Shown: in pieces, positions 865 to 59,436 of the stretch | Layout of the letters: each line of letters opens with the position of its first letter | How positions within the stretch are numbered: the stretch's first letter is position 1 | Assembly: GCA_035574155.1 (NCBI GenBank) | Contig: DATLZD010000021.1 | Coordinates: 72,608-136,607, forward strand | Reading direction: 5' to 3' | DNA length: 64,000 nt | DNA from: Dehalococcoidia bacterium | GTDB taxonomy: Bacteria; Chloroflexota; Dehalococcoidia; SM23-28-2; HRBIN24 | The notes under the pieces: generated by a model | Database searches by the model: none | Told to the model about the DNA's origin: nothing | What the model saw: the letters and a program-made list of their open reading frames with translations, nothing else | Program-made: the position numbers and the translations under genes

Positions 865-939
865 GGGCCCGTAGCTCAGCGGCAGAGCGGGGGACTTTTA
901 ATCCCAGGGCCGTGGGTTCGAATCCCACCGGGCCCTCCA
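865..939 (+). tRNA. tRNA-Lys (anticodon UUU)
   Basis: Cloverleaf readable by hand: acceptor gggcccg/cgggccc, anticodon loop cTTTTaa, T-loop ttcgaat, encoded CCA. Confidence 0.85.
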
Positions 940-4486: not shown

Positions 4487-5952
4487 TAGCCCACGGTGCC
4501 CTCGAGGCTCACCCGCAGCAGCTGTGAGACCTCCATGGCGAACTCGAAGGGCAGCTCCTGGAAGACCCCGCGGCAGAAGCCGTGCACGATCATGTACTGG
4601 GCCTCCTCCTCGCTGATGCCGCGGCTCATCAGGTAGAAGAGCTGCTCGTCGGAGATCTTGGAGGTGGTGGCCTCGTGCTCGATGCGGGCGGTGGGGTTGC
4701 GCACCTCGAGATAGGGGACCGTGTGGGCGGCGCACCTGCTGCCGATGAGCAGCGAATCGCAGCGGGTGAAGTTGCGGGCACCGTCGGCGGTGGGCATGAT
4801 CTTCACCAGGCCACGGTAGGTGTTCTGGCCGTGGCCCGCCGAGATGCCCTTGGCCACAATGGTGCTGCGTGTGTTCTTGCCGATGTGGATCATCTTGGTG
4901 CCGGTATCGGCCTGCTGGTAGTTGTTGACCAGGGCCACCGAGTAGAACTCGCCCACCGAGTTGTCGCCCCGCAGGATTACGCTGGGGTACTTCCACGTGA
5001 TGGCCGAGCCCGTCTCCACCTGGGTCCACGAGATCTTGGAGTTCCTGCCCAGGCAGATGCCCCGCTTGGTCACGAAGTTGTAGACGCCGCCGTGCCCCTC
5101 CTTGTCGCCCGGGTACCAGTTCTGGAGGGTGGAATACTTGATCTCGGCGTCCTCCAGGGCGATGAGCTCCACCACGGCAGCGTGGAGCTGGTGCTTCTTG
5201 CGGATGGGCGCCGTGCACCCCTCCAGGTAGCTGACATAGGAGCCACGGTCGGCGATGATGAGGGTCCGCTCGAACTGCCCCGCCTCGGCCTCGTTAATGC
5301 GGAAGTAGGTCATCAGGTCCATGGGGCAACGCACACCCGGCGGGACGTAGACGAAAGTCCCATCGGAGAAGACGGCCGAGTTGAGGGCGGCGTAGAAGTT
5401 GTCGGTGTAGGGCACCACCGAGCCCAGGTACTTGCGCACCAGCTCAGGGTGCTTCTGGATGGCCTCGGAGATGGGACAGAAGATGATGCCCAGCTCCTCC
5501 AGCTTCTTCTGGAAGGTGGTGGCCACCGACACCGAGTCCAGCACGGCGTCTACCGCCACCCCCGCCAGCCGCTTCTGCTCCTCCAGGGGGATGCCCAACT
5601 TGTCGAAGGCCCGCTTCAGCTCAGGGTCGATGTCGTCCAGGGTCTTGGGCCGGTCGCCGTCTCGGGAGAGGGGCGCCGCGTAGTACACGATGTCCTGGAA
5701 GTCGATGGGCGGGTGGTAGATCTTGGCCCACTTGGGCTCCACGTAGTCCAGGGACCGCCAGTAGCGGTAGGCCCGCAACCGCCATTCCAGCATCCACTCG
5801 GGCTCTTCCTTCTTGCGGGAGATCAGCCGGATGATGTCCTCGCTGAGGCCCTTGGGGGCCACGTCGGCGGGCACCGGGATGACGAACCCCCACTTGTACT
5901 CCTTCTCCTCGATGCCCGTCTCGCGGGATATGACCTTGCGCGCTGGCGGCAT
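4486..5952 (-). CDS. sufB: Fe-S cluster assembly scaffold SufB
   Basis: 488 aa from [19 protein letters not shown]...; start chosen at ATG 5952, which has the strong SD GAGGAGG 6 nt upstream. Confidence 0.9.
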
Positions 5953-5994
5953 ATGCAGGCCTCCTCGGGGCCAAGGGGCAGGCATTTTGGCAAC

Positions 5995-6010
5995 ATTTGA
6001 CTGTCCAAAT
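5995..6010. promoter_or_regulatory. AT-rich inverted repeat ATTTG-N6-CAAAT in the sufB 5' region; candidate operator
   Basis: Read directly in the sequence about 45 nt upstream of the sufB start; unusually AT-rich for this genome. Confidence 0.25.
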
Positions 6011-6083
6011 CTCCCTTAGCCCAGCACAAGTGTAGCACAGGCCCAATGGGGGCGCAAGGGGTGCAGCGGAGCCCCAGGCCCCG

Positions 6084-6112
6084 TTGACGGTGGAGACGGC
6101 AGGTGGTAGAGT
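6084..6112 (+). promoter_or_regulatory. Sigma-70-like promoter TTGACG-17-TAGAGT driving the T-box leader
   Basis: Hexamers with a 17-nt spacer, placed just upstream of the predicted Stem I. Confidence 0.4.
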
Positions 6113-6114
6113 TT

Positions 6115-6420
6115 TGAGCACAAGCGCATATCGGAAAGGCTGCGAACGGGGATAGTAGCCCGCAGGGCAGGGCCCAGAGAGCCGGGGGAAGGTGCGAGCC
6201 CGGTGCTACTGCGGCGGGTGAATGGGCCCGGGAGCTGCCTGCCCAACGGGGCGCCCAGGCGCCCCTAGTAGGCCAGGACGGAGGGGCACCGTTATCGGCC
6301 CAGGGCGCGGAGTCCGGCATGCTCGGCCGCGCCCGTAACGAGTGCCCGCCCCAGCGGCGGGAACTAGGGTGGCACCGCGGGAGGCCCCTCGCCCCTAGAG
6401 GCGAGGGGCCTTGCAGTTGT
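6115..6420 (+). promoter_or_regulatory. T-box riboswitch leader, Trp-specific (UGG specifier), upstream of trpB2-trpS-trpE
   Basis: Canonical T-box sequence AACTAGGGTGGCACCGCGG at ~6362-6380 (UGGC pairs with NCCA, discriminator G); perfect 10-bp terminator hairpin GGCCCCTCGC/GCGAGGGGCC at 6383-6410 followed by UUGCAGUUGU; AG-box-like CAGAGAG at ~6175; AGTAGC/GCTACT helix; candidate specifier gaaTGGg at ~6223. Confidence 0.55.
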
Positions 6421-6441
6421 CGGGGGAGCAGGAGGAAGGAC

Positions 6442-7800
6442 ATGGACCGCTACAAGTTCATACTGGACGAGAAGGACCTGCCCACCCACTGGTATAACGT
6501 CATCGCCGATATGGGGCCGCCGCCACCGCCCCTCGACCCGCGCAGCGGCCAGCCGGTTCCGCCGGAGGCCCTGGCACCCCTGTTCCCCAAGGCCCTCATC
6601 GCCCAGGAGGTCTCGGCCGAGCGCTGGGTCGCCATCCCGGACGAGGTGCGGGACGTCTACAGGCTGTGGCGCCCGACGCCCCTCTACCGGGCCAAGCGGC
6701 TGGAGCAGGCCCTGGGCACGCCTGCCCGCATCTACTACAAGTATGAGGGCGTCTCGCCCGCCGGCTCCCACAAGCCCAACACGGCGGTGGCCCAGGCCTA
6801 TTACAACAAGGCCGAGGGCGTCCGCCGTCTGACCACCGAGACCGGCGCCGGCCAATGGGGCTCGGCCCTGGCCATGGCCTGCGCCTTCTTCGGCCTGGAG
6901 CTGAAGGTCTACATGGTCAAGGTCTCCTACCACCAGAAGCCCTACCGCCGGGTCCTGATGGAGACCTGGGGCGCGCAGGTGGTCCCGAGTCCCAGCCCCG
7001 ATACCCAGGCCGGCCGCCAAGTGCTGGAACGCGACCCCGAGTCGCCCGGCTCCCTCGGCATCGCCATCTCCGAGGCGGTGGAGGACGCTGCCACTCGGGA
7101 CGACACCAAGTACTCCCTGGGGTCCGTCCTCAACCATGTGCTCCTGCACCAGACGGTGATGGGCCTCGAGGCGATGCGCCAGATGGAGATGGCCGGCGAC
7201 TACCCCGATGTGGTCATCGGCTGCGTGGGCGGCGGCTCCAACTACGGCGGCCTCTGCCTGCCCTTCGTGGGGGAGCGGCTCCGCTCGGGCCGGAAGACGC
7301 GCTTCGTGGCCGTGGAGCCCGAGGCATGCCCCTCCCTCACTCGGGGGCAGTACACCTACGACTTCGGCGACACGGCCGAGACGACGCCCCTGCTGAAGAT
7401 GCACACGCTGGGGCACAGCTTTATACCGCCCTCCATCCACGCTGGCGGCCTGCGCTACCACGGCATGGCCCCCATCATCTCCAAGCTGGTAGCCGACGGC
7501 GTCATGGAGGCGCGGGCCTACCACCAGACGAGGGTCTTCGAGGCAGCCGTCCAGTTCGCCAGGGCCGAGGGGATCGTCCCGGCACCCGAGTCGGCGCACG
7601 CCATCCGCGCCGCCATCGATGAGGCCCTGGCCGCCCGGGAGGCAGGGGAGCGGAGGGTCATCCTGTTCAACCTTTCGGGCCATGGACTGCTGGACTTGGG
7701 GGCCTATGACCAGTTCCTGTCGGGCAAACTGGAGGACTACGCCTACCCCGAAGAGAGGGTGAGGGAGGCCCTGGCCGGCCTCCCCCGGGTAGGCCAGTAG
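6442..7800 (+). CDS. trpB: Tryptophan synthase beta-like protein, TrpB2 clade
   Basis: 452 aa from [19 protein letters not shown] (a typical TrpB2 N-terminus); PLP-fold motifs GSHKPN and GGGSN; SD GGAGGAAGG upstream. Confidence 0.85.
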
Positions 7801-7813
7801 TCGGCGCCAGGAG

Positions 7814-8917
7814 GTGGCGAGCGTGAGTGGTGAGAGGACGGCGCTGCAGGAGGCGGGGCTCCCGCCGCCTCCCCGCCTGTGGGAGATGAACCTGGACCTG
7901 GAGGTGAAGCCCACCTGGCGGAGAATGCTCACCGGCGACCGGCCCACCGGCCCCCTGCACCTGGGCCACTACGTGGGGTCCCTGCGCTACCGCCTGGCCC
8001 TCCAGGACAAGATAGAGTGCTTCATCATCATCGCCGACCTGCATGTCCTCACCACCCGCACCGAAAGGCTGCAGGAGCTCGAGGCCAACGTCCGGGAGGT
8101 GGTGCTGGACTACTTGGCGGTGGGTATCGACCCCCAGAAGACCACCATCTACCTCCAGTCGCTGGTGCCGGAAGTGCTGGAGATCATGTGGCTGTTCATG
8201 AGCCTGGTGAGCGTGCCCCGTGCCCAGCGGATCCCCACCCTTAAGCAGGCGGTGCGCGACCTTCAGTTGGAGTCGGCATCGGTGGCCCTCCTTTCTTACC
8301 CCATCCTCCAGGCGGCGGACATCCTGATGGTGAAGGGTGACGTGGTGCCGGTGAGCAAGGACAACGCCTCCCACATCGAGCTGACCAGGGAGATAGCGCG
8401 GCGCTTCAACCGCCTCTATCGCCCTATCTTCCCGGAGCCGGACTCGCCCATCGGCCCCCTGCTGGTGGGCTTGGACGGGCAGAAGAAGGCGTCCAAGTCC
8501 CTGGGCAACGTCATCCTGCTGTGCGACGACGCGGACACGGTGCGGCGCAAGGTGCGCAGCATGTTCACGGACCCGCGGCGCATCCGCGCCGACATCCCCG
8601 GCCGCACCCGCGGCAACCCTGTCTTCATCTACCACGACTTCTTCAACGACGACCGGGCGGAGGTCGAGGACCTGAAGCAGCGCTACCGCCGTGGCAAGGT
8701 GGGGGACGTGGAGGTCAAGGAGAAGCTGACCAGGGCCATCAACCGCTTCCTGGACCCCATCCGCGAGCGACGGGCCTACTTCGCGGCCCGCCCCAGGCTC
8801 ATCGAGGAGATCGTCCACGAGGGGTCGCGGCGGGCGCGGGCCGAGGCCCAGCAGACGCTACGGGAGATGCGGGAGGCCATGGGCCTGACCCACTTCCGCC
8901 AGGAGGGGGCACCCTGA
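7814..8917 (+). CDS. trpS: Tryptophanyl-tRNA synthetase
   Basis: HIGH-type motif TGDRPTGPLHLGHYVGSL and KMSKS-type KASKSLG; GTG start at 7814 or 7823 after AGGAGG. Confidence 0.85.
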   Translation: MASVSGERTALQEAGLPPPPRLWEMNLDLEVKPTWRRMLTGDRPTGPLHLGHYVGSLRYRLALQDKIECFIIIADLHVLTTRTERLQELEANVREVVLDYLAVGIDPQKTTIYLQSLVPEVLEIMWLFMSLVSVPRAQRIPTLKQAVRDLQLESASVALLSYPILQAADILMVKGDVVPVSKDNASHIELTREIARRFNRLYRPIFPEPDSPIGPLLVGLDGQKKASKSLGNVILLCDDADTVRRKVRSMFTDPRRIRADIPGRTRGNPVFIYHDFFNDDRAEVEDLKQRYRRGKVGDVEVKEKLTRAINRFLDPIRERRAYFAARPRLIEEIVHEGSRRARAEAQQTLREMREAMGLTHFRQEGAP

Positions 8918-8943
8918 GCGTCTACTGGCCGTCGCTGGCCCAA

Positions 8944-10419
8944 GTGGAGGCGCTGGCCCGGGAGGGCAGGGGTAACTTGTGCCCCGTCCTGCGGGAGGTG
9001 CCCGCTGACCTGGAGACGCCCGTCTCGGCCTTCCTCAAGGTGGCCCGGGGCGCCTATTCCTTCCTCCTGGAGTCGGTGGAGGGCGGCGAGCGGCTGGCCC
9101 GCTACAGCTTCATCGGCACCGAGCCCTATCGGGTGCTGCGCCAGGGCCCCTATGCCCACCCCTGGGACGGGTCTGACCCGCTGCGGGAGGTGGAGTCGGA
9201 GCTGTCCCGCTTCCGCCTGGCCCTGCCGTCGGAGGGGCCGGCGCCGGCCCTGCCCAGCTTCACCGGCGGCGCCGTGGGTTACCTGGCCTGGGAGTGCGTG
9301 CGCCATTTCGAGCCGCGGGTGCCCATCCGCCATGAGGACCCGCTGGGAGTCCCCGAGGCCCTGTTCCTGTTCGTGGACACGCTGCTGGTGTTCGACCACC
9401 TGCGCCACGTGGTGAAGGTGGTGTCCCATTGCCGGCTGGACGGGGAGGTGGCAGCCAGCTACCGGCAGGCCTGCTGGCGAATAGAGGAGCTGGTAGCGAG
9501 GCTGTCGCGCCCGCTGCCCTCCCAGCCCTACGCCGTGCGCAGGGGGGCCGCCCCGACCGGCACCGCCTCCAACGTGGACCGGGAGGCCTTCCTGTCCATG
9601 GTGGAGCAGGCCCGGAGATACATCGTCGCGGGCGATGTCATCCAAGTGGTGCTGTCCCAGAGGCTGTCGCGGCCCACCGCCGCCCACCCCTTCTCCATCT
9701 ACCGCGCGCTGCGGGCCGTGAACCCATCGCCCTACATGTATTACCTGCACCTGGGCGACTTCCAGGTCATAGGGGCCTCGCCGGAGATGCTCGTGCGGGT
9801 GGAGGGCGGGGAAGTGGTGACCCACCCTATCGCCGGCACCCGGCGCCGCGGTCGGACGCCCGAGGAGGACGCTGCCCTGGAGGAGGAGCTGCGGGCCGAC
9901 GAAAAGGAGCGGGCCGAGCACCTGATGCTGGTGGACCTGGCCCGCAACGACATCGGGCGGGTGGCCCTGCCCGGAACGGTGCGGGTGCCCCAGTTCATGG
10001 AGGTGGAGCGCTACTCCCACGTGATGCACCTGGTCTCCCACGTGACAGGCCGGCTTCGTCCCGACCTGACCTGCTACGATGCCCTGCGTGCCTGCTTCCC
10101 AGCCGGCACCGTCTCCGGGGCGCCCAAGATAAGGGCCATGGAGATCATCGCCGAACTGGAGCCTGACCGGCGCGGGCCTTACGCTGGAGCCGTGGGTTAC
10201 TTCGACTATTCGGGCAACATGGACACGGCCATAACCATCCGCACCGTGGTGCTGAAGGACGGCGTCGCGTCCGTGCAGGCGGGGGCCGGCATCGTCTATG
10301 ACTCGGTGCCGGAGCGGGAGTACGAGGAGACCCTGAACAAGGCGGCCGCCCTGCTGACAGCCATCGAACGGGCCGAGGCAGCGGAGGAGGCGATGGTCAC
10401 CGGCAGCCTGGGGTACTGA
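8944..10419 (+). CDS. trpE: Anthranilate synthase component I (TrpE)
   Basis: Chorismate-binding family motifs (LLESVEGGE...; [13 protein letters not shown]); start uncertain: GTG 8944 or CTG 8914 (the latter has GGAGG 7 nt upstream); must begin after the trpS stop. Confidence 0.8.
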
Positions 10420-10435
10420 AGCGGAGGACAGCACG

Positions 10436-11641
10436 TTGAGCGATCTCCTGTCGTTGGTGCCGGAGCCGCTGCGCAACCTGCTGCGTCACCGGTTGCGAAC
10501 GGGCCTGACGGTTATGGGCATCACCATCGGCATCTTTGCCCTGGTGGTCCTGGGGGCGTTGGCGGAGAAGGTGAACCAGTTGGTCGAGGGCGGCGAGGAA
10601 TACCTGTCCAACCGCATAGCCATAACCGATAAAGGGGGAGGGCACCCGTTTTTCGGGGGGTTCGGTCTGGTGCCGGTGTCCTTCGCCGAGAACGTGCGCC
10701 AGGTGCCAGGTGTGGCCTGCGTGGAGACCAGCATCAACCTGCTGCTGGACCCCGAGGGCGGTGCCAGCGTGGGCATGCCCCAGATCATTTCAGGGGTGGT
10801 GGTGGACGAGATCCAGCAGTGCGACCGGGAAGCCCCTTCCCCGGTGGAGTTGAGCTTCGCCCGAGGCGACTGGTGGCGCCAAGGCGAACGGGGCGTAACG
10901 GTGCTCGGGGCCGATGTGGCCGAGCGGCTCAAGGCACGCGTGGGGCAGACCGTGACCCTGCGCGACCACCCCTTCCGGGTGGTAGGCGTCCTGGACCGCA
11001 CCCTCACCGGCCCCGATAACATCGCCTACGTGCCCTTGGACGACGCCCGTGAGCTGCTGAGGGAGTCGCGCCTCTTCTTCTCGGAGATAGACCTATCGGA
11101 CAAGGTGGACACCATCTTCGCCTCGGTCCAGCCCGGCGTGGACGGCGACCGTCTGGCCCGCGATATCGAGGCCCGTTACCCCGACATCCGTGCCTTCGGC
11201 CCCACCGAGCTGAAGGAACCGCTGCAGACCAGCAACATGGTGTTCCAGTTCATCATCCTCGGCGTCGCCATGATCGCCCTCATCGTGGGAGGCCTCTCGG
11301 TCATCAACACCATGGTCATGTCGGTGGCCGAACGGGTCCGCGAGATAGGGATCAAGAAGGCGGTGGGGGCAAGCGATGGCGACATCCTGCGGGAGTACCT
11401 GGCCGAGGCGGTGGCCATCGGCGCCCTGGGCGGCCTGCTGGGGCTGTTGGCCGGCTCCCTGGCGGTCATGGTCCTGAACGACTTCGCCCGCGAGGCGGCC
11501 GGAGGCCCCGTCTTCCTGGTGACGGGACGGCTGGCAGCCGGCTCGGTGGCCTTCGCCGCCTTCCTCGGCGCCGTGGCCGGCCTGCTGCCCGCCTTCCGGG
11601 CGGCGCGGCTGCGGCCGGTGGAGGCCCTGCGGTCCGAGTGA
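10436..11641 (+). CDS. ABC transporter permease, FtsX/MacB-like (MacB periplasmic core + C-terminal 4-TM FtsX domain)
   Basis: N-terminal TM, large extracytoplasmic domain and C-terminal FtsX-type TM bundle; TTG start with GGAGG 8 nt upstream. Confidence 0.75.
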   Translation: MSDLLSLVPEPLRNLLRHRLRTGLTVMGITIGIFALVVLGALAEKVNQLVEGGEEYLSNRIAITDKGGGHPFFGGFGLVPVSFAENVRQVPGVACVETSINLLLDPEGGASVGMPQIISGVVVDEIQQCDREAPSPVELSFARGDWWRQGERGVTVLGADVAERLKARVGQTVTLRDHPFRVVGVLDRTLTGPDNIAYVPLDDARELLRESRLFFSEIDLSDKVDTIFASVQPGVDGDRLARDIEARYPDIRAFGPTELKEPLQTSNMVFQFIILGVAMIALIVGGLSVINTMVMSVAERVREIGIKKAVGASDGDILREYLAEAVAIGALGGLLGLLAGSLAVMVLNDFAREAAGGPVFLVTGRLAAGSVAFAAFLGAVAGLLPAFRAARLRPVEALRSE

Positions 11642-11656
11642 GGAGGTAAGAGTCCC

Positions 11657-12388
11657 GTGGCACAGGAAAGGGTAGCCGGCCAACTGCTCCAGGCGGAGCA
11701 GGCCATCATCGAGGCGCGGGGCCTGGTCAAGACCTACCGCCTAGGAGGCGGCGTGGTGCGGGCGTTGGACCATGTGGACCTGACGGTGGAACGGGGCGAA
11801 CTGATGGCGGTCATGGGACGCTCGGGCTCCGGCAAGACCACCCTGCTGAACGTCCTGGGAGGCCTGGACCGCCCCGATGAGGGGCAGGTGGTCATCGACG
11901 GCGTGGACATCGCCCGCCTTAATGGGCGCCAACTGCCACGGCTGCGCCGCGAGAAGGTGGGCTTCGTCTTCCAGGAGTTCAACCTGATCCCCACCCTGAC
12001 GGCCCTGGAGAATGTTGAGCTGCCCCTTCGCTACGCTGGGGTGCCCAGGGCAGAGCGACGGCGGAGGGCCATGGAGGCCCTGGCCCTGGTCGGCATGGAC
12101 CACCGCGCACGTCACCGGCCGTCCCAGCTATCGGGGGGAGAGCAGCAGCGGGTGGCCCTCGCGCGGGCGCTGGTCAGTCGACCGGCCATCGTCCTGGCGG
12201 ACGAGCCCACGGGGGAGCTGGACACTCACACAGCGGCGCAGGTGATGGAGCTGGTCCAGCGCCTGAACCGGGAGACGGGCCAGACCTTCATCATCGTTAC
12301 CCACGACCCGGCCATCGCCCAACGCTGTCGTCGGGTGGTGCGCATGGAGGACGGACGCATCGTCAGCGACCAACGCCAAGGAGAGTGA
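11657..12388 (+). CDS. ABC transporter ATP-binding protein (MacB/LolD-type)
   Basis: Walker [10 protein letters not shown], signature LSGGEQQR, Walker [13 protein letters not shown]; GTG start 10 nt after AGGAGG. Confidence 0.85.
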
Positions 12389-12397
12389 CGGTCCGGG

Positions 12398-12406
12398 TGC
12401 TATAAT
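12398..12406 (+). promoter_or_regulatory. Extended -10 promoter TGcTATAAT in front of the toxin-antitoxin pair
   Basis: Perfect TGnTATAAT read in sequence; the predicted TSS is ~4 nt before ATG 12417, implying a leaderless antitoxin mRNA. Confidence 0.35.
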
Positions 12407-12416
12407 GGGGCCAGCC

Positions 12417-12662
12417 ATGACCAGGGAACGCTTACATCGTCTCATAGATCGAGCCTCCGAGGAGGACTTGGCCATTGTTGAGCACCTCCTCCTTCACCTG
12501 TTGGCCTGTCGCGATCCGGTCTTGCGCAGCCTGATCCGTGCCCAAGCCGAGGAGGAGGGCCTGACACAAGCGGATGAGACGGCCGTCGAAGGGGGACTTC
12601 GGGACGTCCGCGAAGGACGGACGCGACCCACGGCCGAGGTTCGCCGCCTCCTCGGACTGTGA
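12417..12662 (+). CDS. Putative type II antitoxin (small acidic protein, family not assigned)
   Basis: 81-aa acidic protein whose stop overlaps the RelE/ParE start by GTGA; ATG 12405 is an alternative start. Confidence 0.5.
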   Translation: MTRERLHRLIDRASEEDLAIVEHLLLHLLACRDPVLRSLIRAQAEEEGLTQADETAVEGGLRDVREGRTRPTAEVRRLLGL

Positions 12663-12919
12663 GCTGGCAAGTAGAGTGGAGCGAGCGGGCGATAACCGAC
12701 CTGCGTTGGCTGCCCGCGCGGGACGCCAAAAGGGTCATCGAGGCAGTGGAACGATACGCCCAGTCGGGTCACGGCGACATACGTAAGATCCGGGGCAGGG
12801 ACGCGCTGTTCCGGTTACGTATTGGGACTTGGAGAGTCCTGTTCACCCCCGACGTCGACTCTCGACGCATCTACGTGCTCACGGTCAGGCACCGTAGGGA
12901 GGCCTACCGGGACATGTGA
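12659..12919 (+). CDS. RelE/ParE-family type II toxin
   Basis: 86 aa with the typical RelE/ParE pattern; GTG start overlapping the antitoxin stop. Confidence 0.7.
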   Translation: MSWQVEWSERAITDLRWLPARDAKRVIEAVERYAQSGHGDIRKIRGRDALFRLRIGTWRVLFTPDVDSRRIYVLTVRHRREAYRDM

Positions 12920-12946
12920 GGTCGCGAAGGCTAGAGGTGGTGAACG

Positions 12947-13513
12947 TTGGTCCTGCTAATCGATAACTACGACAGTTTCACCTACAACCTCTACCAGCTC
13001 CTGTCGGAGCTGGGCGCAGAGGTGTTGGTGGTGCGCAACGACCGCACGACCGTCGACGACGTCGAGGCCATGCGTCCTCAGGGCATCGTCATCTCCCCCG
13101 GCCCCTGCACGCCGCGAGAGGCAGGCATATCGGTGGAGCTGGTGCGACGGCTGGCCGGCAGGGTGCCCATCCTTGGGGTCTGCCTCGGTCACCAGTGCAT
13201 TGGCGAGGCCTTCGGTGGGCGAGTGGTGGGTGCCGGCGAGATCGTCCACGGCAAGACGTCCCTCGTCCACCATACGGGCCAGGGCGTCCTGCGGGGCCTG
13301 CCCGACCCCTTCCCGGCCGTCCGCTACCACTCGTTGGTGGTGGAGCGGGACTCGCTGCCGGAAGAGCTGGAGGTGACGGCCTGGACGGACAAAGGCCTGG
13401 TCATGGGGCTGCGCCACCGCCGCCTGCCGGTGGAGGGGGTCCAGTTCCACCCCGAGTCCATCGCCACCCCGGTGGGCAAGCAGATACTGCGGAACTTCCT
13501 GGGGTCGCTATGA
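12947..13513 (+). CDS. trpG: Anthranilate synthase component II (glutamine amidotransferase TrpG/PabA)
   Basis: LLIDNYDSFTYNL start and GATase triad context GVCLGHQ; TTG start after AGAGGTGG. Confidence 0.85.
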   Translation: MVLLIDNYDSFTYNLYQLLSELGAEVLVVRNDRTTVDDVEAMRPQGIVISPGPCTPREAGISVELVRRLAGRVPILGVCLGHQCIGEAFGGRVVGAGEIVHGKTSLVHHTGQGVLRGLPDPFPAVRYHSLVVERDSLPEELEVTAWTDKGLVMGLRHRRLPVEGVQFHPESIATPVGKQILRNFLGSL

Positions 13514-14541
13514 TCCGCGAGGCCATCGCTGCCCTGGTCAACGAGGGCCGCCACCTGTCAGAGGAGGAGGCGGCCGCCGTCATGACAGAGGTGATGGAGG
13601 GGCAGGCCACCCCCGCCCAGCTGGCCGCCCTCCTGGTGGCCCTACGCCTGCGAGACGAGACGGTGGACGAGCTGGTGGGCATGGCCCGCGTCATGCGCCG
13701 CTTCGCCCTGCGCGTCCCCCTGGAGCCTCCCCTCCTGGACACTTGCGGGACCGGCGGCGACGGCCGCGGCACGTTCAACGCCTCCACGGCGGCAGCCATC
13801 GTGGCGGCGGCGGCCGGGGCGCGGGTGGCCAAGCACGGCAACCGTGCCGCCTCCTCCCGCTGCGGCTCCGCCGACCTGCTGGAAGCCCTGGGCGCCCGCA
13901 TCGAGCTAGGACCGGAGCAAGTGGCCCGCTGCGTGCAGGAGGTGGGCATGGGCTTCATGTTCGCCCCCTCCTTCCATCCGGCCATGAGGCACGCAGCCGC
14001 CCCCCGGCGGGAGATCGGCCTGCGCACCGTCTTCAACCTTCTGGGCCCCCTCACCAACCCGGCCGGGGCCAGCCACCAACTGCTGGGGGTCCCAGACGCC
14101 GCCGTCGGCGAGAAGATGGCCCAGGCCCTTCTCCGCCTCGGCGTCCGCCGGGCGCTGGTGGTCCACGGCAGCGACGGTCTGGACGAGGTCAGCCCCTCGG
14201 CACCGACCCTTGTCTGGGAGGTGGCGGGGGGAGACGTGCGCCACTACCAGGTGGCCCCCGAGGACGCCGGCCTGGCGCCGGTGCCCTTGACGGCCGTTTG
14301 CTCCAGCGACCCCCAGGAGAACGCGGACCTGCTGCGGGCGGTGCTCTCGGGCCAGCGGCTCCCCCTGCGCAACTTCGTGCTCCTCAACGCCGGCGCCGCC
14401 CTGATGGCCGCCGAGATGGTCGGGAGCTTGAGGGAGGGCGTGGCCCTCGCCGCCGAGGCCATCGATAGCGGCGCCGCAGCCCGTAAGCTGGAAGAGTTCG
14501 TTGCCGCCACCCAGGGCCTGGCCGAGGCGGTGTCCCCATGA
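13510..14541 (+). CDS. trpD: Anthranilate phosphoribosyltransferase
   Basis: Motif GTGGDG and TrpD-family features; ATGA overlap with the trpG stop. Confidence 0.9.
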   Translation: MIREAIAALVNEGRHLSEEEAAAVMTEVMEGQATPAQLAALLVALRLRDETVDELVGMARVMRRFALRVPLEPPLLDTCGTGGDGRGTFNASTAAAIVAAAAGARVAKHGNRAASSRCGSADLLEALGARIELGPEQVARCVQEVGMGFMFAPSFHPAMRHAAAPRREIGLRTVFNLLGPLTNPAGASHQLLGVPDAAVGEKMAQALLRLGVRRALVVHGSDGLDEVSPSAPTLVWEVAGGDVRHYQVAPEDAGLAPVPLTAVCSSDPQENADLLRAVLSGQRLPLRNFVLLNAGAALMAAEMVGSLREGVALAAEAIDSGAAARKLEEFVAATQGLAEAVSP

Positions 14542-15332
14542 GCGCCCCCTCCATCCTGGACGAGATCGTGGCCCACAAGCGGCAGGAGGTGGCCGCCGCC
14601 AAGGAGCGGCTTCCCTGGCGCGAGCTCGAGCGCCGGCTGGCACAGGTGCCTCCCCTCCGGCCCTTCGCCGCCGCCCTGCGGGGGCCGGGGCTGGCCCTCA
14701 TCGCCGAGGTGAAGGCCAGGAGCCCCTCCCGCGGCCTGCTGCGTCCGGACCTGGACCCGGCGGCCCTGGCCACGACCTACGCCCGCGCCGGCGCCGCGGC
14801 CATCTCCGTGCTCACCGACGAGAAGTATTTCGGCGGCTCCCTGGACCACCTGCGCCAGGTTCGCGAGGCCCTGCCCGATGGTCCGCCCCTGCTGCGCAAG
14901 GACTTCGTCATCGACCCATACCAGGTCTTGGAGGCGCGGGCGGCTGGCGCCGATGCCGTCCTCCTCATCGCGGCCGCCCTGGAGCACAAGGAGCTCGAAA
15001 GGCTGCTAGCGACAGCGCGGGACCTGGGCATGGACGCCCTGGTGGAGGTCCACGACGAGGCCGAGCTAGAGGCAGCCCTGGCAGCCGGTGCCGACCTGGT
15101 GGGCATCAACAACCGGGACCTGCGGACCTTCCGGGTGGACCTGGAGACCACCGTCCGCCTGCGCCCCCTGGTCCCGCCGGGCGTGACGGTGGTGGCCGAG
15201 TCGGGCATCCACACGCGGCAGGACGCTGCCCGCCTGGCCGCGCTGGGCGTGGACGCCATCCTGGTGGGGGAGGCGCTGGTGACGGCCCCGGACCCAGCCC
15301 TGAAGGTGCAGGAGCTGTCCTGCCCGGACTGA
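14538..15332 (+). CDS. trpC: Indole-3-glycerol phosphate synthase
   Basis: IGPS TIM-barrel motifs (LIAEVKARSPS, GINNRDL); ATGA overlap with trpD. Confidence 0.9.
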   Translation: MSAPSILDEIVAHKRQEVAAAKERLPWRELERRLAQVPPLRPFAAALRGPGLALIAEVKARSPSRGLLRPDLDPAALATTYARAGAAAISVLTDEKYFGGSLDHLRQVREALPDGPPLLRKDFVIDPYQVLEARAAGADAVLLIAAALEHKELERLLATARDLGMDALVEVHDEAELEAALAAGADLVGINNRDLRTFRVDLETTVRLRPLVPPGVTVVAESGIHTRQDAARLAALGVDAILVGEALVTAPDPALKVQELSCPD

Positions 15333-15369
15333 CCATGGGCCGCTGTGACCAGGGCAGCGCCGCCGGTGT

Positions 15370-16104
15370 ATGATGGGCCTGCCTGAGGTGGAGGCGGTGG
15401 GCGCTGGCCCCTGTCTGGTCAAGATCTGCGGGGTGACGGAGCCCCAGCATGCGCGGGCGGCGGCCGCCCTGGGCGCCGACTTCGTGGGCGTCGTCTTCGC
15501 CCCCAGCCGTCGGCAGGTGACCCTGGGCCAGGCCCAGAAGATAGCCATCGCCCTGGGCAAGCTGGACAGGCCCCCGGAGCCCCTGAGCGCCCCTGTCAGC
15601 ACCGTCGACATTGAGCGGCTGTTGGCCCGCTCGCGCCCCCTGCTGGTGGGAGTCTTTGCCGACCAGGACAGCGACACCATCAACGCCATCGCCGACCAGT
15701 GCCGCCTGGACATCGTGCAGCTTTCGGGGTCAGAGCCATGGCAGGTGTGCTTCCAGGTCCGGCGGCCCGTTTTCAAGTGCCTCAAGGTGAGGCCAGGACA
15801 GACGGCGGACGAGGTGCTGGCGGGCATCGGTCAGGGGGCAGTGCCGCTGCTGGACCCCTATGTGCCGGGCGCCTACGGCGGCACGGGCCAGATGCTGGAC
15901 TGGACGGTAGCTGCGGCCGTGGCGCGAGAGGTGCCCATCATCCTGGCAGGGGGACTGACCCCCGACAACGTGGCCGAGGCGGTCCGGAAGGTCCGCCCCT
16001 GGGCGGTGGACGTGTCCAGCGGCGTGGAGACGGAAGGGGTGAAGGACCTGGACAAGGTGCGGGCCTTCATCCTGGCGGCCAAGGCAGCCCTCACCACCCC
16101 GTGA
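15370..16104 (+). CDS. trpF: Phosphoribosylanthranilate isomerase
   Basis: VKICGVT at the N-terminus is typical of PRAI; the start may be a downstream GTG. Confidence 0.8.
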   Translation: MMGLPEVEAVGAGPCLVKICGVTEPQHARAAAALGADFVGVVFAPSRRQVTLGQAQKIAIALGKLDRPPEPLSAPVSTVDIERLLARSRPLLVGVFADQDSDTINAIADQCRLDIVQLSGSEPWQVCFQVRRPVFKCLKVRPGQTADEVLAGIGQGAVPLLDPYVPGAYGGTGQMLDWTVAAAVAREVPIILAGGLTPDNVAEAVRKVRPWAVDVSSGVETEGVKDLDKVRAFILAAKAALTTP

Positions 16105-16451
16105 GGGAGCCAGTACGGCCCCCCGGCCGGCCGCTCGCCTTGGCCCTGCCTGGGACCACCGTCCCAGCTCTCTTTCCCGCCGCCGTGGCCGTTGCTATCA
16201 TAGGCAGGAGGCGCTAGCTGCCGGGGGTCACTTGTTGAAGGTGAGCGAGGTAGGCGAGGGGCACCGCCGCCCCCATCTCTCCTATCTGCACACGGCCGTA
16301 GCCTGTCTTGGGCGGCGTGCCGCCGGCGCCTCCATGCGGCGGGGCCCGCCGGTAGCCCGGACGGTGGGCTTAAGGCCCACCGCAGCATGGGCCGTATGCT
16401 GCCTGCAAGGGCCGTCCCTGTCCCTCCTCCCCCCGACATGCTGGGTGGGCC
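16105..16451 (+). other. 347-nt non-coding spacer between trpF and trpB with tandem hairpins and a C-rich tract; putative internal leader/attenuator
   Basis: No credible ORF; hairpins GGTGGGC-ttaag-GCCCACC and GCAGCAT-gggccgt-ATGCTGC, then tccctcctcccccc complementary to G-rich SD-like sequences. Confidence 0.3.
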
Positions 16452-17657
16452 ATGTCCAGCCCTAGCAACGGCCTACCCGACGCTGCCGGTCGCTTCGGTC
16501 CCTTCGGCGGGCGCTACGTCCCTGAGACCCTCATGGCCCCCCTCCAAGAGCTGGAGGAGGCCTACCTGGCCGCCCGCGACGACCCCGCCTTTCAGTCCGA
16601 GCTGGACGCCCTGCTGCGGGACTACGCCGGGCGGCCCACGCCCCTCTACTTCGCCCGCCGCCTCACGGAGCGCATCGGCGGTGCCAAGATATATCTCAAG
16701 CGCGAGGACCTGGCCCACACCGGCGCCCACAAGATCAACAACGCTCTGGGCCAAGGGCTGTTGGCCAAGCGCCTGGGAAAGAGACGCATCGTGGCCGAGA
16801 CGGGGGCGGGGCAGCATGGAGTGGCCACCGCCACCGTCTGCGCCCTCCTGGGACTGGAGTGCGTGGTCTACATGGGCGCCGAGGACGTGCGCCGCCAGTC
16901 CCCCAACGTCTTCCGCATGCGGCTGCTGGGGGCCGAGGTGCGGGCCGTAGAGTCGGGCACCCGCACCCTCAAGGACGCCATCAACGAGGCCCTGCGCGAC
17001 TGGGTGACCAACGTCCGCACCACCCACTACCTGTTGGGCAGCGCCGTCGGCCCACACCCCTATCCCATGCTGGTGCGCGACTTCCAGTCGGTCATCGGCC
17101 GCGAGGCGCGGGAGCAGATGCTGGCCCGGGAGGGACGCCTGCCCGATTACGCTGTGGCCTGCGTGGGAGGGGGCTCCAACGCCATCGGCCTGTTTTACCC
17201 CTTCTATGGGGACCGGCAGGTCCAGTTGGTAGGCGTGGAAGCAGCGGGCCGCGGCGTCGAGACGGGCCAGCATGCCGCCAGCCTGGTGGCCGGTCGCCCG
17301 GGCGTCCTGCACGGCGCCTACTCCTACCTGCTGCAGGACGAGCACGGACAGGTCCTGGGGACCCACTCCATCTCCGCTGGCCTCGACTATCCGGGGGTCG
17401 GACCGGAACATGCCTACCTCAAGGAGACGGGGCGTGCCCGCTACGTGGCCGTGGGCGACGACGGGGCGTTGGAAGGCTTTCGGCTCCTGGCCGAGACGGA
17501 GGGGATCCTGCCAGCACTGGAGCCTGCGCACGCCGTCCACTACGCGGCCCAGCTGGCATCCCAGCTGCCCCCGGAGGCCATCGTGCTGGTCTGCCTCTCG
17601 GGGCGCGGCGACAAGGACCTGGGGGTAGTCGCCCAGGCCCTAGGCGTGCATATCTAG
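16452..17657 (+). CDS. trpB: Tryptophan synthase beta chain (TrpB1)
   Basis: Full-length TrpB with HTGAHKINN and GGGSNAIG motifs. Confidence 0.9.
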
Positions 17658-18160
17658 CCTGCAGGGCCACGCCAGACGGTGCGGACCTTGTAGACCGGTA
17701 GCCTGCTGCCGACCGCCTCCACCGCCAACACCTCCAGTCCGTCCATGTCGGCGCAGGTGGTGACGTGACGCTGGACGAGGCGGCCCAGGGGCTGGGCCAC
17801 CACGGTGGCCAGCATGGCCGCCAGCAGCGCCTGGGGCAGCCGCTCCCATCTCCCTGACCGGCGGGCCACCAAGAAGGCGGAGAGGCCCGTCAGCAGGCCC
17901 GTGAGGGAGATGTTGGTCCCGCACAGGGGAGAAACGGCCAGATAGGACTCGCCCCGTCGCAGACGGGCCAGGGCCTCTAGGACCGACGCCTGCAGGTCTT
18001 CGGCCCCCACCCGCCCCACGATGTAGAACCCGTCCCCGCTGGCCCGGCCCAGCAGTTGGACTGGCCTGCCCAGTCGCGACAGCAGGACAGCGATGGTGGC
18101 GTGCTCCAGGGCATGGTTGCGGCGCACGGCCTCCACGTGACGCCGGACAGCGTCTATCAC
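17654..18160 (-). CDS. Conserved hypothetical protein (169 aa)
   Basis: GTG start in a GTGA overlap with the dedA stop, GGAGGAGG SD upstream; no family assigned from sequence. Confidence 0.45.
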
Positions 18161-18831
18161 TCCTTCACCTCCTCCACCGCCGCCGTCGGACGGCCCTTGG
18201 CGCTGTGGCCGAAGGCCTCCCGCAGGCGCCGTCCGTAGTAGATGATGACCGCCAGGGCCAGCAGGGCAGCCAAGGGCAGGCTCACCGGGCGGAACCACTC
18301 CATGAGCTTCTGCCAGTGCTCCCCCAGCAGGTAGCCGGCCGTTGCCAGGCCCAGCGACCAGGGATAGGAGCCCAGGAAGGTGAAGACGGCAAAGCGGACT
18401 GGCTCGGCCCTAGCGACCCCGGCCGGCAGGCTGATGAAGGTCCGCACCACCGGCAACAGCCGCGAGAAGAAGGCCGATGCCTCACCGTGGCGGCGGAAAA
18501 AGCGGTCGGCCAGCGCCAGCTCCCCAGGGCTGATGAGCAGGTAGCGGCCGTAACGCTCCAGAAAGGGTCGCCCCGCCCAGGCCCCCACCAGGTAGGCCAG
18601 CATCGAGCCCGCCAGGTTGCCGATGGCCCCGTAGAGGCCGGCCAGCAGCAGCCACTCGGCCCCCAGCCCCTTTTCCTTCACCAGGAACCAGCCGGCCAGG
18701 GGCATGATGACCTCGCTGGGGAAGGGGACGCAGGCGCTCTCCACCGCCATGAGGACGACCACCCCTGGCCAGCCGATGGCCTCGTAGAGGTGGCGGGCCA
18801 GCTCCAGGAGCCGGTCCTCAATGCCGGACAT
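18157..18831 (-). CDS. DedA/SNARE-associated (VTT-domain) membrane protein
   Basis: Multi-TM protein with the DedA-family signature region; start taken at MSGIED... Confidence 0.7.
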   Translation of the reverse strand: MSGIEDRLLELARHLYEAIGWPGVVVLMAVESACVPFPSEVIMPLAGWFLVKEKGLGAEWLLLAGLYGAIGNLAGSMLAYLVGAWAGRPFLERYGRYLLISPGELALADRFFRRHGEASAFFSRLLPVVRTFISLPAGVARAEPVRFAVFTFLGSYPWSLGLATAGYLLGEHWQKLMEWFRPVSLPLAALLALAVIIYYGRRLREAFGHSAKGRPTAAVEEVKE

Positions 18832-18968
18832 CACCCTCCAGTATGCCATAGGACACGGCCGTGGCGCGGCCGCCTGTGCCTTTCGCTGCTGCAACGGGTA
18901 TAATGGCTTAGTGCAATATCGTGGCGCCGCCCGCTGGTCGACGGCGCTGGGAGGGTGAGGTCTAGACC

Positions 18969-59339: not shown

Positions 59340-59436
59340 GGGAGTGGCAGGGGCCCGGTGGCCCTCCCGGTCTTCAAAACCGTGGCGGGGCGGCGTGCCC
59401 GTCCCGGGTGGGTTCGACTCCCATACACTCCCGCCA
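59340..59436 (+). tRNA. selC: tRNA-Sec (selC), anticodon UCA
   Basis: ~97 nt with encoded CCA; anticodon loop cTTCAaa; 8-bp acceptor GGGAGTGG/ACACTCCC (one mismatch); 6-bp D-stem GGGGCC/GGCCCT with a 4-nt loop; long variable arm; T-loop GGTTCGACTCC. Confidence 0.7.

What the first reader, a model, noticed from the sequence alone, without database searches (positions are those of the whole stretch)
6084..6441. Trp-specific T-box leader in front of trpB2-trpS-trpE
The leader contains the T-box consensus AACTAGGGTGGCACCGCGG. Its UGGC would pair with the GCCA end of a tRNA-Trp carrying discriminator G. A perfect 10-bp terminator hairpin follows immediately. Upstream there is an AG-box-like CAGAGAG, and a candidate specifier loop (gaaUGGg) on the 3' side of Stem I. 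A TTGACG-17-TAGAGT promoter sits just before it. T-box control of trp genes is known in Chloroflexi. The operon begins with the rarer TrpB2 paralog and the tRNA synthetase rather than trpE.
Basis: partly seen in the sequence, partly recalled or inferred. Interest (0 to 1): 0.5.

Follow-up and report, generated by a model that had tools for sequence, protein, structure and literature searches.

The report
Tryptophan T-box leader, Chloroflexota trp operon
This is an ordinary tRNA-sensing "T-box" RNA switch that most likely turns on a tryptophan-synthesis operon when uncharged tRNA-Trp accumulates; the kind is already documented in Chloroflexi, so it is a correct but unsurprising call.

Summary
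Window 6133-6399 (+) matches the whole Rfam T-box model (RF00230, positions 1-219) at 73.4 bits, E = 5e-14 for the window. That is below Rfam's curated cut-off of 93, so a gathering-threshold scan misses it. UGG sits at the canonical specifier position (6223-6225) and is followed by a purine. The T-box bulge reads UGGC, which fits a tRNA with discriminator G. A weak antiterminator (-9 kcal/mol) shares a strand with a strong terminator hairpin (-30 kcal/mol). Twenty homologous leaders lie upstream of trpB2 in Chloroflexota MAGs. All have UGG, four clear Rfam's cut-off, and Stem I shows strong covariation. The operon is trpB2-trpS-trpE-(ABC transporter, toxin-antitoxin)-trpGDCFB. Trp T-boxes in front of trpB-like, trpE and trpS genes in Chloroflexi have been published since 2008. 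Three points depart from the textbook form. The terminator has no U-tract, a trait shared with the two closest relatives. An extra conserved helix lies between the IIA/B pseudoknot and Stem III. The Rfam score is below threshold. Translational control is not supported. tRNA-Trp itself could not be inspected. Verdict: new member of a known kind, low interest.

The parts
6084..6112 (+). Sigma-70-type promoter TTGACG-17 nt-TAGAGT with TG extended -10. The predicted transcription start is near 6119-6120.
   Evidence: the only promoter-like site in 5900-6600, 9 of 12 matches, 0.1 expected from shuffles. Prediction only.
6139..6235 (+). Stem I. K-turn at the base (6141-6146 with 6231-6233). Specifier loop with S-turn (GAUAGUA 6151-6157; GAAUGGG 6220-6226). 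AG bulge AGAGA 6176-6180. Distal loop GGAAGGUGCGAG 6187-6198.
   Evidence: Rfam alignment. All 21 pairs are standard in the window. Across 20 leaders 94.8% of cells pair, 12 pairs change on both sides, and 0 of 500 shuffles reach the observed values.
6223..6225 (+). Specifier codon UGG (Trp), followed by purine G6226 and then the CCCG strand of the lower helix.
   Evidence: Position by Rfam alignment. UGG plus a purine is invariant in 20 of 20 related leaders and in 13 further metagenomic ones.
6238..6277 (+). Stem II (CCUGCCC with GGCCAGG, one C.C mismatch), with an extended apical helix and an AGUA motif at 6267-6270.
   Evidence: Rfam alignment.
6279..6301 (+). Stem IIA hairpin (CGG 6279-6281 with CCG 6289-6291), F-box CCGUUA 6289-6294, and pseudoknot IIB (loop GGGC 6284-6287 with GCCC 6298-6301).
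   Evidence: The loop/downstream complementarity is kept in relatives through compensatory variants: UACC/GGUG in L048 and L052, CCGCU/AGCGG in L063.
6303..6334 (+). Extra helix X (GGGCGCGG 6303-6310 with CCGCGCCC 6327-6334). It is not part of the Rfam consensus and is present at this position in all 20 related leaders.
   Evidence: 119 of 120 cells paired against 74% (maximum 89%) when 3' arms are swapped between sequences. Variants include GGGUAU/GUACCC, CAGCAU/GUGCUG, GGACAU/GUGUCC and GGCGAU/GUCGCU. The arms were hand-anchored.
6345..6361 (+). Stem III (CCCGCC with GGCGGG, loop CCAGC).
   Evidence: Rfam alignment; MFE folds.
6362..6396 (+). T-box sequence and antiterminator. AGGG 6366-6369 pairs with CCCU 6393-6396. 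GCGGG 6377-6381 pairs with CUCGC 6388-6392. The 7-nt bulge UGGCACC is at 6370-6376, and its UGGC would pair with 5'-GCCA-3' of a tRNA with discriminator G.
   Evidence: (-9.1 kcal/mol). The same architecture is found in 20 of 20 relatives.
6381..6412 (+). Terminator hairpin: 13 pairs (11 perfect G+C-rich pairs 6383-6393 with 6400-6410), loop CCUAGA. It re-uses the 3' strand of the antiterminator. The tail UUGCAGUUGUCGG is not a U-tract.
   Evidence: -29.5 kcal/mol. (no canonical terminator called). (relatives).
6430..6435 (+). Shine-Dalgarno AGGAGG, 6 nt before the ATG at 6442. It lies outside the switch helices.
   Evidence: P(unpaired) is 0.64 in the terminator state and 0.62 in the antiterminator state.
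6442..7800 (+). trpB2 (TrpB-like PLP enzyme, 452 aa), the first gene.
   Evidence: NF009057, 755.8 bits (cut-off 366).
7814..8917 (+). trpS (tryptophan-tRNA ligase). These are ORF limits; the true start is probably about 30 codons downstream.
   Evidence: TIGR00233, 290.8 bits (cut-off 176.75), matching from residue 37.
8521..10419 (+). trpE (anthranilate synthase I). These are ORF limits; the true start is probably near 8930, after the trpS stop.
   Evidence: TIGR00564, 584 bits (cut-off 517.7), matching from residue 162.
10436..17657 (+). Rest of the apparent operon: MacB/FtsX-type ABC permease 10436-11641, ABC ATPase 11657-12388, antitoxin-like ORF 12405-12662 (ORF limits as called; the ATG visible is at 12418), ParE-family toxin 12659-12919, trpG 12947-13513, trpD to 14541, trpC 14538-15332, trpF 15370-16104, trpB 16452-17657.
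   Evidence: Co-transcription with the leader is inferred from strand and spacing only.

Best explanation
A Trp-specific T-box riboswitch of the canonical, full-length transcriptional class lies in the ~320-nt leader of a Chloroflexota trp operon.

Transcription starts about 7 nt after the TAGAGT -10 element. Stem I docks tRNA-Trp by pairing the specifier UGG (6223-6225) with anticodon CCA, and by stacking its AG-bulge/distal-loop platform on the tRNA elbow.

If the tRNA is uncharged, its 3' GCCA pairs with UGGC in the 7-nt T-box bulge. This stabilises the weak antiterminator (6366-6396), so RNA polymerase reads through into trpB2-trpS-trpE and the rest of the operon. If the tRNA is charged, the antiterminator is not stabilised. 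Its 3' strand is then captured by the much stronger hairpin at 6381-6412, and transcription stops before trpB2.

Shown here: all the RNA modules, their covariation, the codon position, the overlap of the two helices, and the gene identities.

Inferred: tRNA binding, dependence on charging, that the hairpin actually terminates despite lacking a U-tract (possibly with NusA/NusG help), and that the whole trp cluster is one transcript.
For: - Full-length RF00230 match, E = 4.7e-16 locally and 5.4e-14 for the window, with every module aligned.
- Ten related trpB2 leaders also match the full or nearly full model. Four exceed the curated cut-off: L048 117.9, L052 112.9, L045 104.5 and L029 99.6 bits.
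- A Stem I model finds exactly one hit in the window and 19 in Chloroflexota trpB2 loci. It finds none in the other 60 trpB2 loci (other Chloroflexota, Rokubacteria, Methylomirabilota, Proteobacteria and others).
- Stem I covariation: 94.8% of cells paired, 12 of 21 pairs with changes on both sides, 49 compensatory cells, 0 of 500 shuffles reaching this, and slid controls at 27-49% paired.
- UGG plus a purine is invariant.
- UGGC is present in 18 of 20 leaders. The two with UGGU fit the G.U wobble reported for 46% of Trp T-boxes.
- Antiterminator -9.1 and terminator -29.5 kcal/mol share a strand. The same switch occurs in 20 of 20 relatives with different stem sequences. These energies are in line with the TBDB averages of -7.4 +/- 4.2 and -19.5 +/- 7.9.
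- Downstream genes are TrpB2, TrpS, TrpE, TrpG, TrpD, TrpC, TrpF and TrpB. The order T-box-trpB2-trpS-trpE-...-trpG-trpD is conserved in at least 10 relatives.
- SD accessibility is the same in both states, so control acts on transcription rather than translation.
Against: - The score is below Rfam's gathering cut-off (73.4 against 93).
- There is no U-tract after the hairpin and no terminator by the consensus scan. In the one high-G+C lineage tested biochemically, mycobacteria, RNA polymerase needs a U-tract (PMC3993855).
- No tRNA-Trp gene is in the window or in 30 related loci, so the anticodon and discriminator match rests on general knowledge of bacterial tRNA-Trp (G73) and on TBDB's statement.
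- The full-leader MFE is not more stable than shuffles (z = -1.17). That is uninformative at 72% G+C.
- There are no expression or binding data.
Confidence: 0.85

Rival explanations
1. The leader is a genuine Trp T-box, but in this sub-lineage the 3' switch does not act by classical intrinsic termination. The U-less hairpin might instead cause factor-dependent termination (NusA, NusG or Rho), a long pause, or altered mRNA stability or processing.
For: The window and its two closest relatives (L001 at 86% and L097 at 87.5% TrpB2 identity) all keep a strong hairpin with compensatory changes, followed by U-poor tails. More distant Chloroflexota leaders have clear U-runs. No terminator is called. 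NusG- or NusA-assisted termination at suboptimal U-tracts is documented in mycobacteria and B. subtilis (PMC3993855, PMC8060035).
Against: The tail still has 5 U in its first 10 nt (UUGCAGUUGU). The architecture is otherwise identical to relatives with canonical terminators. Nothing is known about Chloroflexota RNA polymerase requirements. Factor assistance would still be termination, so this rival differs from the best explanation only in detail.
Confidence: 0.2
2. The leader is a translational T-box: the alternative helices hide or expose the Shine-Dalgarno sequence, as in actinobacterial ileS leaders.
For: The genome is high in G+C and there is no U-tract. The hairpin ends only 18 nt before the SD.
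Against: The SD (6430-6435) and AUG lie outside both helices. Their predicted unpaired probabilities are the same in the two states: 0.64 vs 0.62 for the SD and 0.79 vs 0.79 for the AUG. Stem I is full length, not the truncated actinobacterial type. Relatives have canonical terminators 23-215 nt upstream of the start codon.
Confidence: 0.04
3. The leader is a T-box of another specificity, read in a neighbouring frame of GAAUGGGCC: AUG (Met) or GGG (Gly).
For: Overlapping frames are considered in TBDB. AAUGG is conserved in all the leaders.
Against: The canonical frame (codon, then a purine, then the helix) gives UGG. GGG is not conserved, since 17 of 20 relatives read UGGA. AUG conservation follows from the invariant GAA S-turn motif. 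UGGC calls for discriminator G, which fits bacterial tRNA-Trp; from my own knowledge, elongator tRNA-Met has A73 and tRNA-Gly has U73. Every regulated gene with a recognised pathway role is a Trp gene.
Confidence: 0.02
4. It is a chance resemblance or a decayed, non-functional relic.
For: The Rfam score is below the gathering cut-off with a large composition bias. The core motif alone occurs by chance in this G+C-rich DNA.
Against: E = 5e-14 over the whole model. All modules are intact. Covariation across 20 orthologous leaders shows selection on structure.
Confidence: 0.01

Closest known systems
Trp-specific T-box leaders of Chloroflexi: Dehalococcoides trpE and trpB-like genes (Wels et al. 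2008, PMC2494555); Chloroflexus and Roseiflexus trpB and Herpetosiphon trpS (Sun et al. 2013, PMC3766115, additional file 2)
   Same: Same RNA family, same phylum, same amino-acid specificity, and the same kind of first regulated gene, a trpB-like gene. Homologous leaders from MAGs labelled Dehalococcoidia, Chloroflexia, Anaerolineae, Caldilineae and Ktedonobacter were recovered here.
   Different: Here one leader appears to drive a fused trpB2-trpS-trpE-...-trpGDCFB cluster. The published cases list monocistronic trpB or separate trpE and trpB-like units. The window's sub-lineage lacks the U-tract. I could not read the published leader sequences, so I do not know whether they also carry helix X.
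Canonical Firmicutes T-box (Rfam RF00230; e.g. B. subtilis tyrS and trpS; Trp T-boxes before trpB2 in Streptococcus gordonii, S. sanguinis and a Clostridium)
   Same: The module order is Stem I (K-turn, specifier loop with S-turn, AG bulge, distal loop), Stem II, IIA/B pseudoknot with F-box, Stem III, then the T-box antiterminator and terminator. T-box control of trpB2 is listed in RegPrecise for Firmicutes.
   Different: The leader is 72% G+C. It has an extra conserved helix X between the pseudoknot and Stem III, a long apical extension of Stem II, and no U-tract. Its score is below the curated cut-off.
S. aureus glyS T-box with the lineage-specific 'stem Sa' (PMC5622331)
   Same: It is a precedent for a whole extra helix inserted into an otherwise canonical T-box and conserved within a lineage.
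   Different: Stem Sa sits inside the antiterminator/terminator domain. Helix X lies upstream of Stem III. No function is known for helix X.
Actinobacterial ileS translational T-boxes
   Same: High-G+C hosts, and an expression platform without a canonical terminator.
   Different: Those leaders have a truncated Stem I and sequester the SD. This one has a full Stem I, and the SD lies outside the switch.

Membership tests
T-box leader (RF00230) | Stem I with a K-turn (GA motif) at its base and a specifier loop carrying the S-turn (AGUA ... GAA) | tested here: met
   Rfam alignment. G12, A13 and GGAG are invariant, as are AGUA and GAA. All 21 pairs are standard, with covariation.
T-box leader (RF00230) | Specifier codon at the 3' side of the specifier loop, followed by a purine | tested here: met
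   UGG at 6223-6225 followed by G6226. UGG plus A or G in 20 of 20 relatives.
T-box leader (RF00230) | Distal Stem I platform for the tRNA elbow (AG bulge AGAGA plus conserved distal loop) | tested here: met
   AGAGA at 6176-6180 and GGAAGGUGCGAG at 6187-6198 align to the consensus and are conserved in relatives. The contact with tRNA is not testable here.
T-box leader (RF00230) | Stem II and the Stem IIA/B pseudoknot with F-box CCGUUA | tested here: met
   The pseudoknot partners GGGC/GCCC have compensatory variants in relatives.
T-box leader (RF00230) | Conserved T-box sequence forming an antiterminator with a 7-nt bulge UGGNACC | tested here: met
   6362-6396, -9.1 kcal/mol. Found in 20 of 20 relatives.
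T-box leader (RF00230) | Mutually exclusive, more stable terminator helix that re-uses the 3' strand of the antiterminator (transcriptional class) | tested here: met
   6381-6412, -29.5 kcal/mol, overlapping 6388-6396. Found in 20 of 20 relatives.
T-box leader (RF00230) | U-tract after the terminator hairpin (canonical intrinsic terminator; a feature of the transcriptional class, not of the family as a whole) | tested here: not met
   The tail is UUGCAGUUGUCGG, and the scan calls no terminator. L001 and L097 are the same; other relatives have U-runs. This lowers confidence in the termination step, not in T-box membership.
T-box leader (RF00230) | Score at or above Rfam's curated gathering cut-off (an annotation threshold, not a biological feature) | tested here: not met
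   73.4 bits against 93, with composition bias 36.8. E = 5.4e-14. Homologous leaders L048, L052, L045 and L029 exceed the cut-off.
T-box leader (RF00230) | Cognate tRNA in the same genome whose anticodon pairs with the specifier and whose discriminator pairs with UGGN | not testable with these tools
   There is no tRNA-Trp in the window or in 30 related loci. Bacterial tRNA-Trp G73 comes from general knowledge and from TBDB's statement.
T-box leader (RF00230) | Read-through induced by uncharged, but not charged, cognate tRNA | not testable with these tools
   This requires in vitro transcription or in vivo reporters.
T-box leader (RF00230) | Location in the 5' leader of an aminoacyl-tRNA synthetase, amino-acid biosynthesis or transport gene that matches the specifier | tested here: met
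   trpB2, trpS and trpE lie immediately downstream. The arrangement is conserved in relatives.

The most novel reading that the evidence does not exclude
In a high-G+C Chloroflexota sub-lineage (the window, L001, L097), the T-box decision is executed by a hairpin without a U-tract. This would imply hairpin-only or obligatorily factor-assisted (NusA/NusG) termination. In addition, helix X, conserved across the Chloroflexota Trp T-box leaders found here, could be a functional extra module that contacts tRNA or tunes folding kinetics, comparable to staphylococcal stem Sa, rather than a neutral insertion.
Probability: 0.2. Interest if true: 0.4.

Novelty: new member of a known kind. Interest (0 to 1): 0.2.

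Why it matters
The value is mainly for annotation. It shows that tryptophan supply (trpB2, trpS and the biosynthetic genes) in this uncultured Chloroflexota lineage is probably governed by the charging level of tRNA-Trp.

It also shows that G+C-rich T-boxes with lineage-specific insertions fall below Rfam's curated cut-off. Seven of the eleven leaders scanned did, so routine annotation will under-count them.

The U-tract-less terminator offers a natural test case for whether Chloroflexota RNA polymerase can terminate at such hairpins. That is the only part that touches an open question, namely non-canonical termination in high-G+C bacteria.

Tried and rejected
- Gathering-threshold Rfam scan: no T-box. 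I repeated it with E-value reporting.
- Exact-protein look-up of TrpB2: not on record, so the source genome could not be identified. The closest matches are Chloroflexota MAG JAUQPQ01 (86%) and metagenome contig Ga0209276_100141 (87.5%).
- tRNA scan of 30 related loci for tRNA-Trp: none found.
- Whole-leader MFE z-score: uninformative (-1.17).
- Bare T-box core motif as a detector: rejected. The hits in L070 (Armatimonadota), L026, L033, L080 and at L045:4783 are not supported by Rfam or by the Stem I model. The chance rate is high.
- MAFFT alignment of the IIA-to-T-box segment (A3): out of structural register. I replaced it with anchor-based parsing. The automatic helix finder mis-parsed several leaders, so the arms were hand-anchored. 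This biases the test towards pairing.
- Translational sequestration: rejected.
- Second T-box inside the operon or before the unlinked trpA: none at E <= 0.01.
- Vitreschak 2008 (PMC2271356) and Gutierrez-Preciado 2009 (PMC2650889) are not held in the library. I therefore could not check whether helix X or the fused operon has already been described.

Full report
**1. The observation**

- T-box core AACTAGGGTGGCACCGCGG at 6362-6380.
- CAGAGAG at 6175-6181.
- gaaUGGg at 6220-6226.
- A TTGACG-17-TAGAGT promoter at 6084-6112.

The promoter is the only sigma-70-like site in 5900-6600, against 0.1 expected from shuffles, and it carries a TG extended -10.

The terminator stem is 11 perfect pairs, or 13 with A-U and G.U extensions (6381-6412), at -29.5 kcal/mol.

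- No U-tract follows the hairpin, and the consensus scan calls no terminator there.
- Rfam RF00230 does not hit at its gathering threshold.

**2. Is it more than chance?**

With E-value reporting, RF00230 matches 6133-6399 across the whole model (positions 1-219). The score is 73.4 bits against a curated cut-off of 93, with a composition-bias correction of 36.8 bits. E = 4.7e-16 for the leader and 5.4e-14 for the 64-kb window, both strands, all 4227 families. It is the only T-box in the window.

The core motif alone is not significant in 70% G+C DNA. With one mismatch, 27 of 100 shuffles give a hit. Five bare-motif hits in related loci proved not to be T-boxes. The significance rests on the full structure model and on the comparison with relatives.

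**3. Anatomy (alignment; coordinates checked)**

- Stem I, 6139-6235: K-turn at the base; specifier loop with S-turn (AGUA 6154-6157, GAA 6220-6222); specifier UGG 6223-6225 followed by purine G6226; AG bulge AGAGA 6176-6180; distal loop 6187-6198.
- Stem II, 6238-6277.
- Stem IIA 6279-6291, with F-box CCGUUA and pseudoknot IIB (GGGC 6284-6287 with GCCC 6298-6301).
- Extra helix X: 6303-6310 with 6327-6334.
- Stem III, 6345-6361.
- Antiterminator, 6366-6396, with the bulge UGGCACC at 6370-6376 (-9.1 kcal/mol).
- Terminator, 6381-6412 (-29.5 kcal/mol), which re-uses 6388-6396.
- SD AGGAGG 6430-6435, and the ATG at 6442.

The two energies are in line with the averages TBDB reports for 22,524 transcriptional T-boxes: -7.4 +/- 4.2 and -19.5 +/- 7.9 kcal/mol. 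The terminator is on the strong side.

**4. Genes**

NCBIfam equivalog models identify:
- TrpB2 (6442-7800; 755.8 bits), TrpS and TrpE.
- A MacB/FtsX-type ABC permease and an ATPase.
- A small antitoxin-like ORF and a ParE-family toxin.
- TrpG, TrpD, TrpC, TrpF and canonical TrpB, ending at 17657.

SufBCD is encoded divergently upstream. trpA is not in the cluster. A TrpA homologue lies at 38731-39537 on the minus strand, abutting an unrelated upstream ORF and with no T-box.

**5. Comparative evidence**

A TrpB2 search of one genome per species returned 80 loci. The best is a Chloroflexota MAG at 86% identity.

A Stem I covariance model built from nine leaders found one hit in the window and 19 in those loci. 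All 19 lie directly upstream of trpB2, and all are in MAGs labelled Chloroflexota (Dehalococcoidia, Chloroflexia, Anaerolineae, Caldilineae, Ktedonobacter). There were none in the other 60 loci.

Rfam aligns ten of these over the full or nearly full model. L048 (117.9), L052 (112.9), L045 (104.5) and L029 (99.6 bits) exceed the curated cut-off.

On the 20-sequence Stem I alignment:
- 94.8% of cells form standard pairs.
- 12 of 21 pairs change on both sides, giving 49 compensatory cells.
- For percentage paired, compensatory cells, further pair types and covariation score, 0 of 500 shuffles reach the observed value (1 of 500 for pairs with a change on both sides).
- Sliding the partners by 1-3 columns drops pairing to 27-49%.
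- The alignment was fitted to the model, which favours the structure. The slid controls and the many double changes make the conclusion robust.

UGG followed by a purine is invariant in all 20. Eighteen leaders have UGGC. L015 and L054 have UGGU, which matches TBDB's observation that 46% of Trp T-boxes use a G.U wobble to discriminator G.

All 20 leaders have the canonical antiterminator overlapped by a stronger terminator, with stem sequences that differ between lineages. The order T-box-trpB2-trpS-trpE-(variable insert)-trpG-trpD is conserved in at least ten loci. Only L001 shares the ABC pair.

**6. Mechanism**

The best-supported mechanism is classical T-box attenuation by uncharged tRNA-Trp.

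Translational control is not supported. The SD and AUG lie outside both helices, and their predicted accessibility is the same in the terminator and antiterminator states: 0.64 vs 0.62 and 0.79 vs 0.79.

The weak point is the missing U-tract:
- Most relatives have clear U-runs.
- The window, L001, and the closest metagenomic relative L097 (87.5% TrpB2 identity, found with a specifier-segment scan filtered by the Stem I model) all have strong, compensatorily varied hairpins followed by U-poor tails.
- The hairpin therefore appears to be under selection in this sub-lineage, while the U-tract has eroded.
- In mycobacteria, RNA polymerase needs a U-tract, and NusG helps at suboptimal terminators (PMC3993855). 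NusA and NusG also assist weak terminators in B. subtilis (PMC8060035).
- Whether Chloroflexota RNA polymerase terminates here unaided is unknown.

**7. Specificity**

- The canonical frame gives UGG.
- The +1 frame GGG is not conserved: 17 of 20 relatives read UGGA.
- The -1 frame AUG is conserved only because it overlaps the invariant GAA.
- UGGC calls for discriminator G, which is characteristic of bacterial tRNA-Trp (my own knowledge: G73 is a TrpRS identity element; TBDB also states that the cognate tRNAs carry G).
- The regulated genes with a recognised pathway role are Trp genes.
- The organism's tRNA-Trp could not be inspected. None is present in the window or in 30 related loci.

**8. 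Extra helix X**

Between pseudoknot IIB and Stem III, every one of the 20 leaders carries an additional helix that is absent from the Rfam consensus. Using hand-anchored 6-bp arms:
- 119 of 120 cells pair, against a mean of 74% (maximum 89%) when 3' arms are swapped between sequences.
- Compensatory variants include GGGUAU/GUACCC, CAGCAU/GUGCUG, GGACAU/GUGUCC, GGCGAU/GUCGCU, UCCGCC/GGCGGA and GGGCGC/GCGCCC.

This insertion, the long apical extension of Stem II, and the G+C bias correction plausibly explain why seven of the eleven leaders scanned (the window plus six of ten relatives) fall below Rfam's cut-off. Lineage-specific helices have a precedent in T-boxes (stem Sa of S. aureus glyS, PMC5622331). 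I could not establish whether helix X has been described before.

**9. Comparison with what is known**

- Wels et al. [quoted passage not shown]
- Sun et al. 2013 list Trp T-box regulons in Chloroflexi: trpB in Chloroflexus aggregans, Chloroflexus sp. Y-400-fl, Roseiflexus sp. RS-1 and R. castenholzii, and trpS in Herpetosiphon. They also list trpB2 in Streptococcus gordonii, S. sanguinis and a Clostridium.

RNA family, specificity, phylum and target gene type are therefore all documented. What differs here is minor:
- a single leader in front of a fused trpB2-trpS-trpE...trpGDCFB cluster;
- the lost U-tract in one sub-lineage;
- helix X;
- a score below the curated threshold.

**10. Verdict**

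This is a new member of a known kind. Interest is low (0.2): a specialist would not be surprised. The only angle that touches an open question is termination at a U-tract-less hairpin in a high-G+C, non-model phylum.

Noticed in passing
window 12405-12919 (+): A small type II toxin-antitoxin pair sits inside the trp operon between the ABC ATPase and trpG: an antitoxin-like 85-aa ORF with no family hit, and an overlapping 86-aa ParE/RelE-family toxin (PF05016, E = 1.6e-8). It is absent from the closest relative L001, where the ABC ATPase and trpG are adjacent.
   Followed up: partly
window 10436-12388 (+): A MacB/FtsX-type ABC permease (PF12704 plus PF02687) and its ATPase are inserted between trpE and trpG. 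Only L001 shares them. Other Chloroflexota relatives have different inserts of about 0.1-1.3 kb at the same junction, so trpE|trpG looks like an insertion hot spot. Any link of the transporter to tryptophan or indole is unknown.
   Followed up: partly
window 38731-39537 (-), and 17654-18894 (-): trpA is unlinked from trpB. The operon ends with trpB at 17657 and is followed by convergent DUF6391 and VTT/DedA genes. A TrpA homologue (42% identity to a relative's TrpA) lies 21 kb away on the other strand, directly abutting a 543-aa upstream ORF, and has no T-box.
   Followed up: partly
window 6303-6334; the same position in L001-L063 leaders: A conserved extra helix ('X') lies between the Stem IIA/B pseudoknot and Stem III in all 20 Chloroflexota Trp T-box leaders, with compensatory changes. 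It is not in the Rfam consensus.
   Followed up: yes
window 6411-6425; L001 ~5975-5990; L097 downstream of 9536: The U-tract after the T-box terminator hairpin has been lost in the three most closely related leaders (TrpB2 86% identity or more). More distant Chloroflexota leaders keep canonical U-runs.
   Followed up: yes
L084, L137, L160, L081, L087, L141, L132 (metagenome contigs): Further Trp-type Stem I/T-box leaders (GAAUGGGCC specifier) are not followed by trpB2 within 2.5 kb. They presumably control other Trp genes or transporters, which were not identified.
   Followed up: no
window 59340-59432 (+) and 865-936 (+): A tRNA-Sec gene (74.9 bits, anticodon UCA) and a tRNA-Lys(UUU) gene. 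The tRNA-Sec implies selenoprotein synthesis in this Chloroflexota genome.
   Followed up: no
L070:5877, L026:9694, L033:1028, L080:57, L045:4783: Exact GGTGGNACC(G/A)CG motifs that are not T-boxes by Rfam or by the Stem I model. This is a caution against motif-only T-box calls in G+C-rich genomes.
   Followed up: yes
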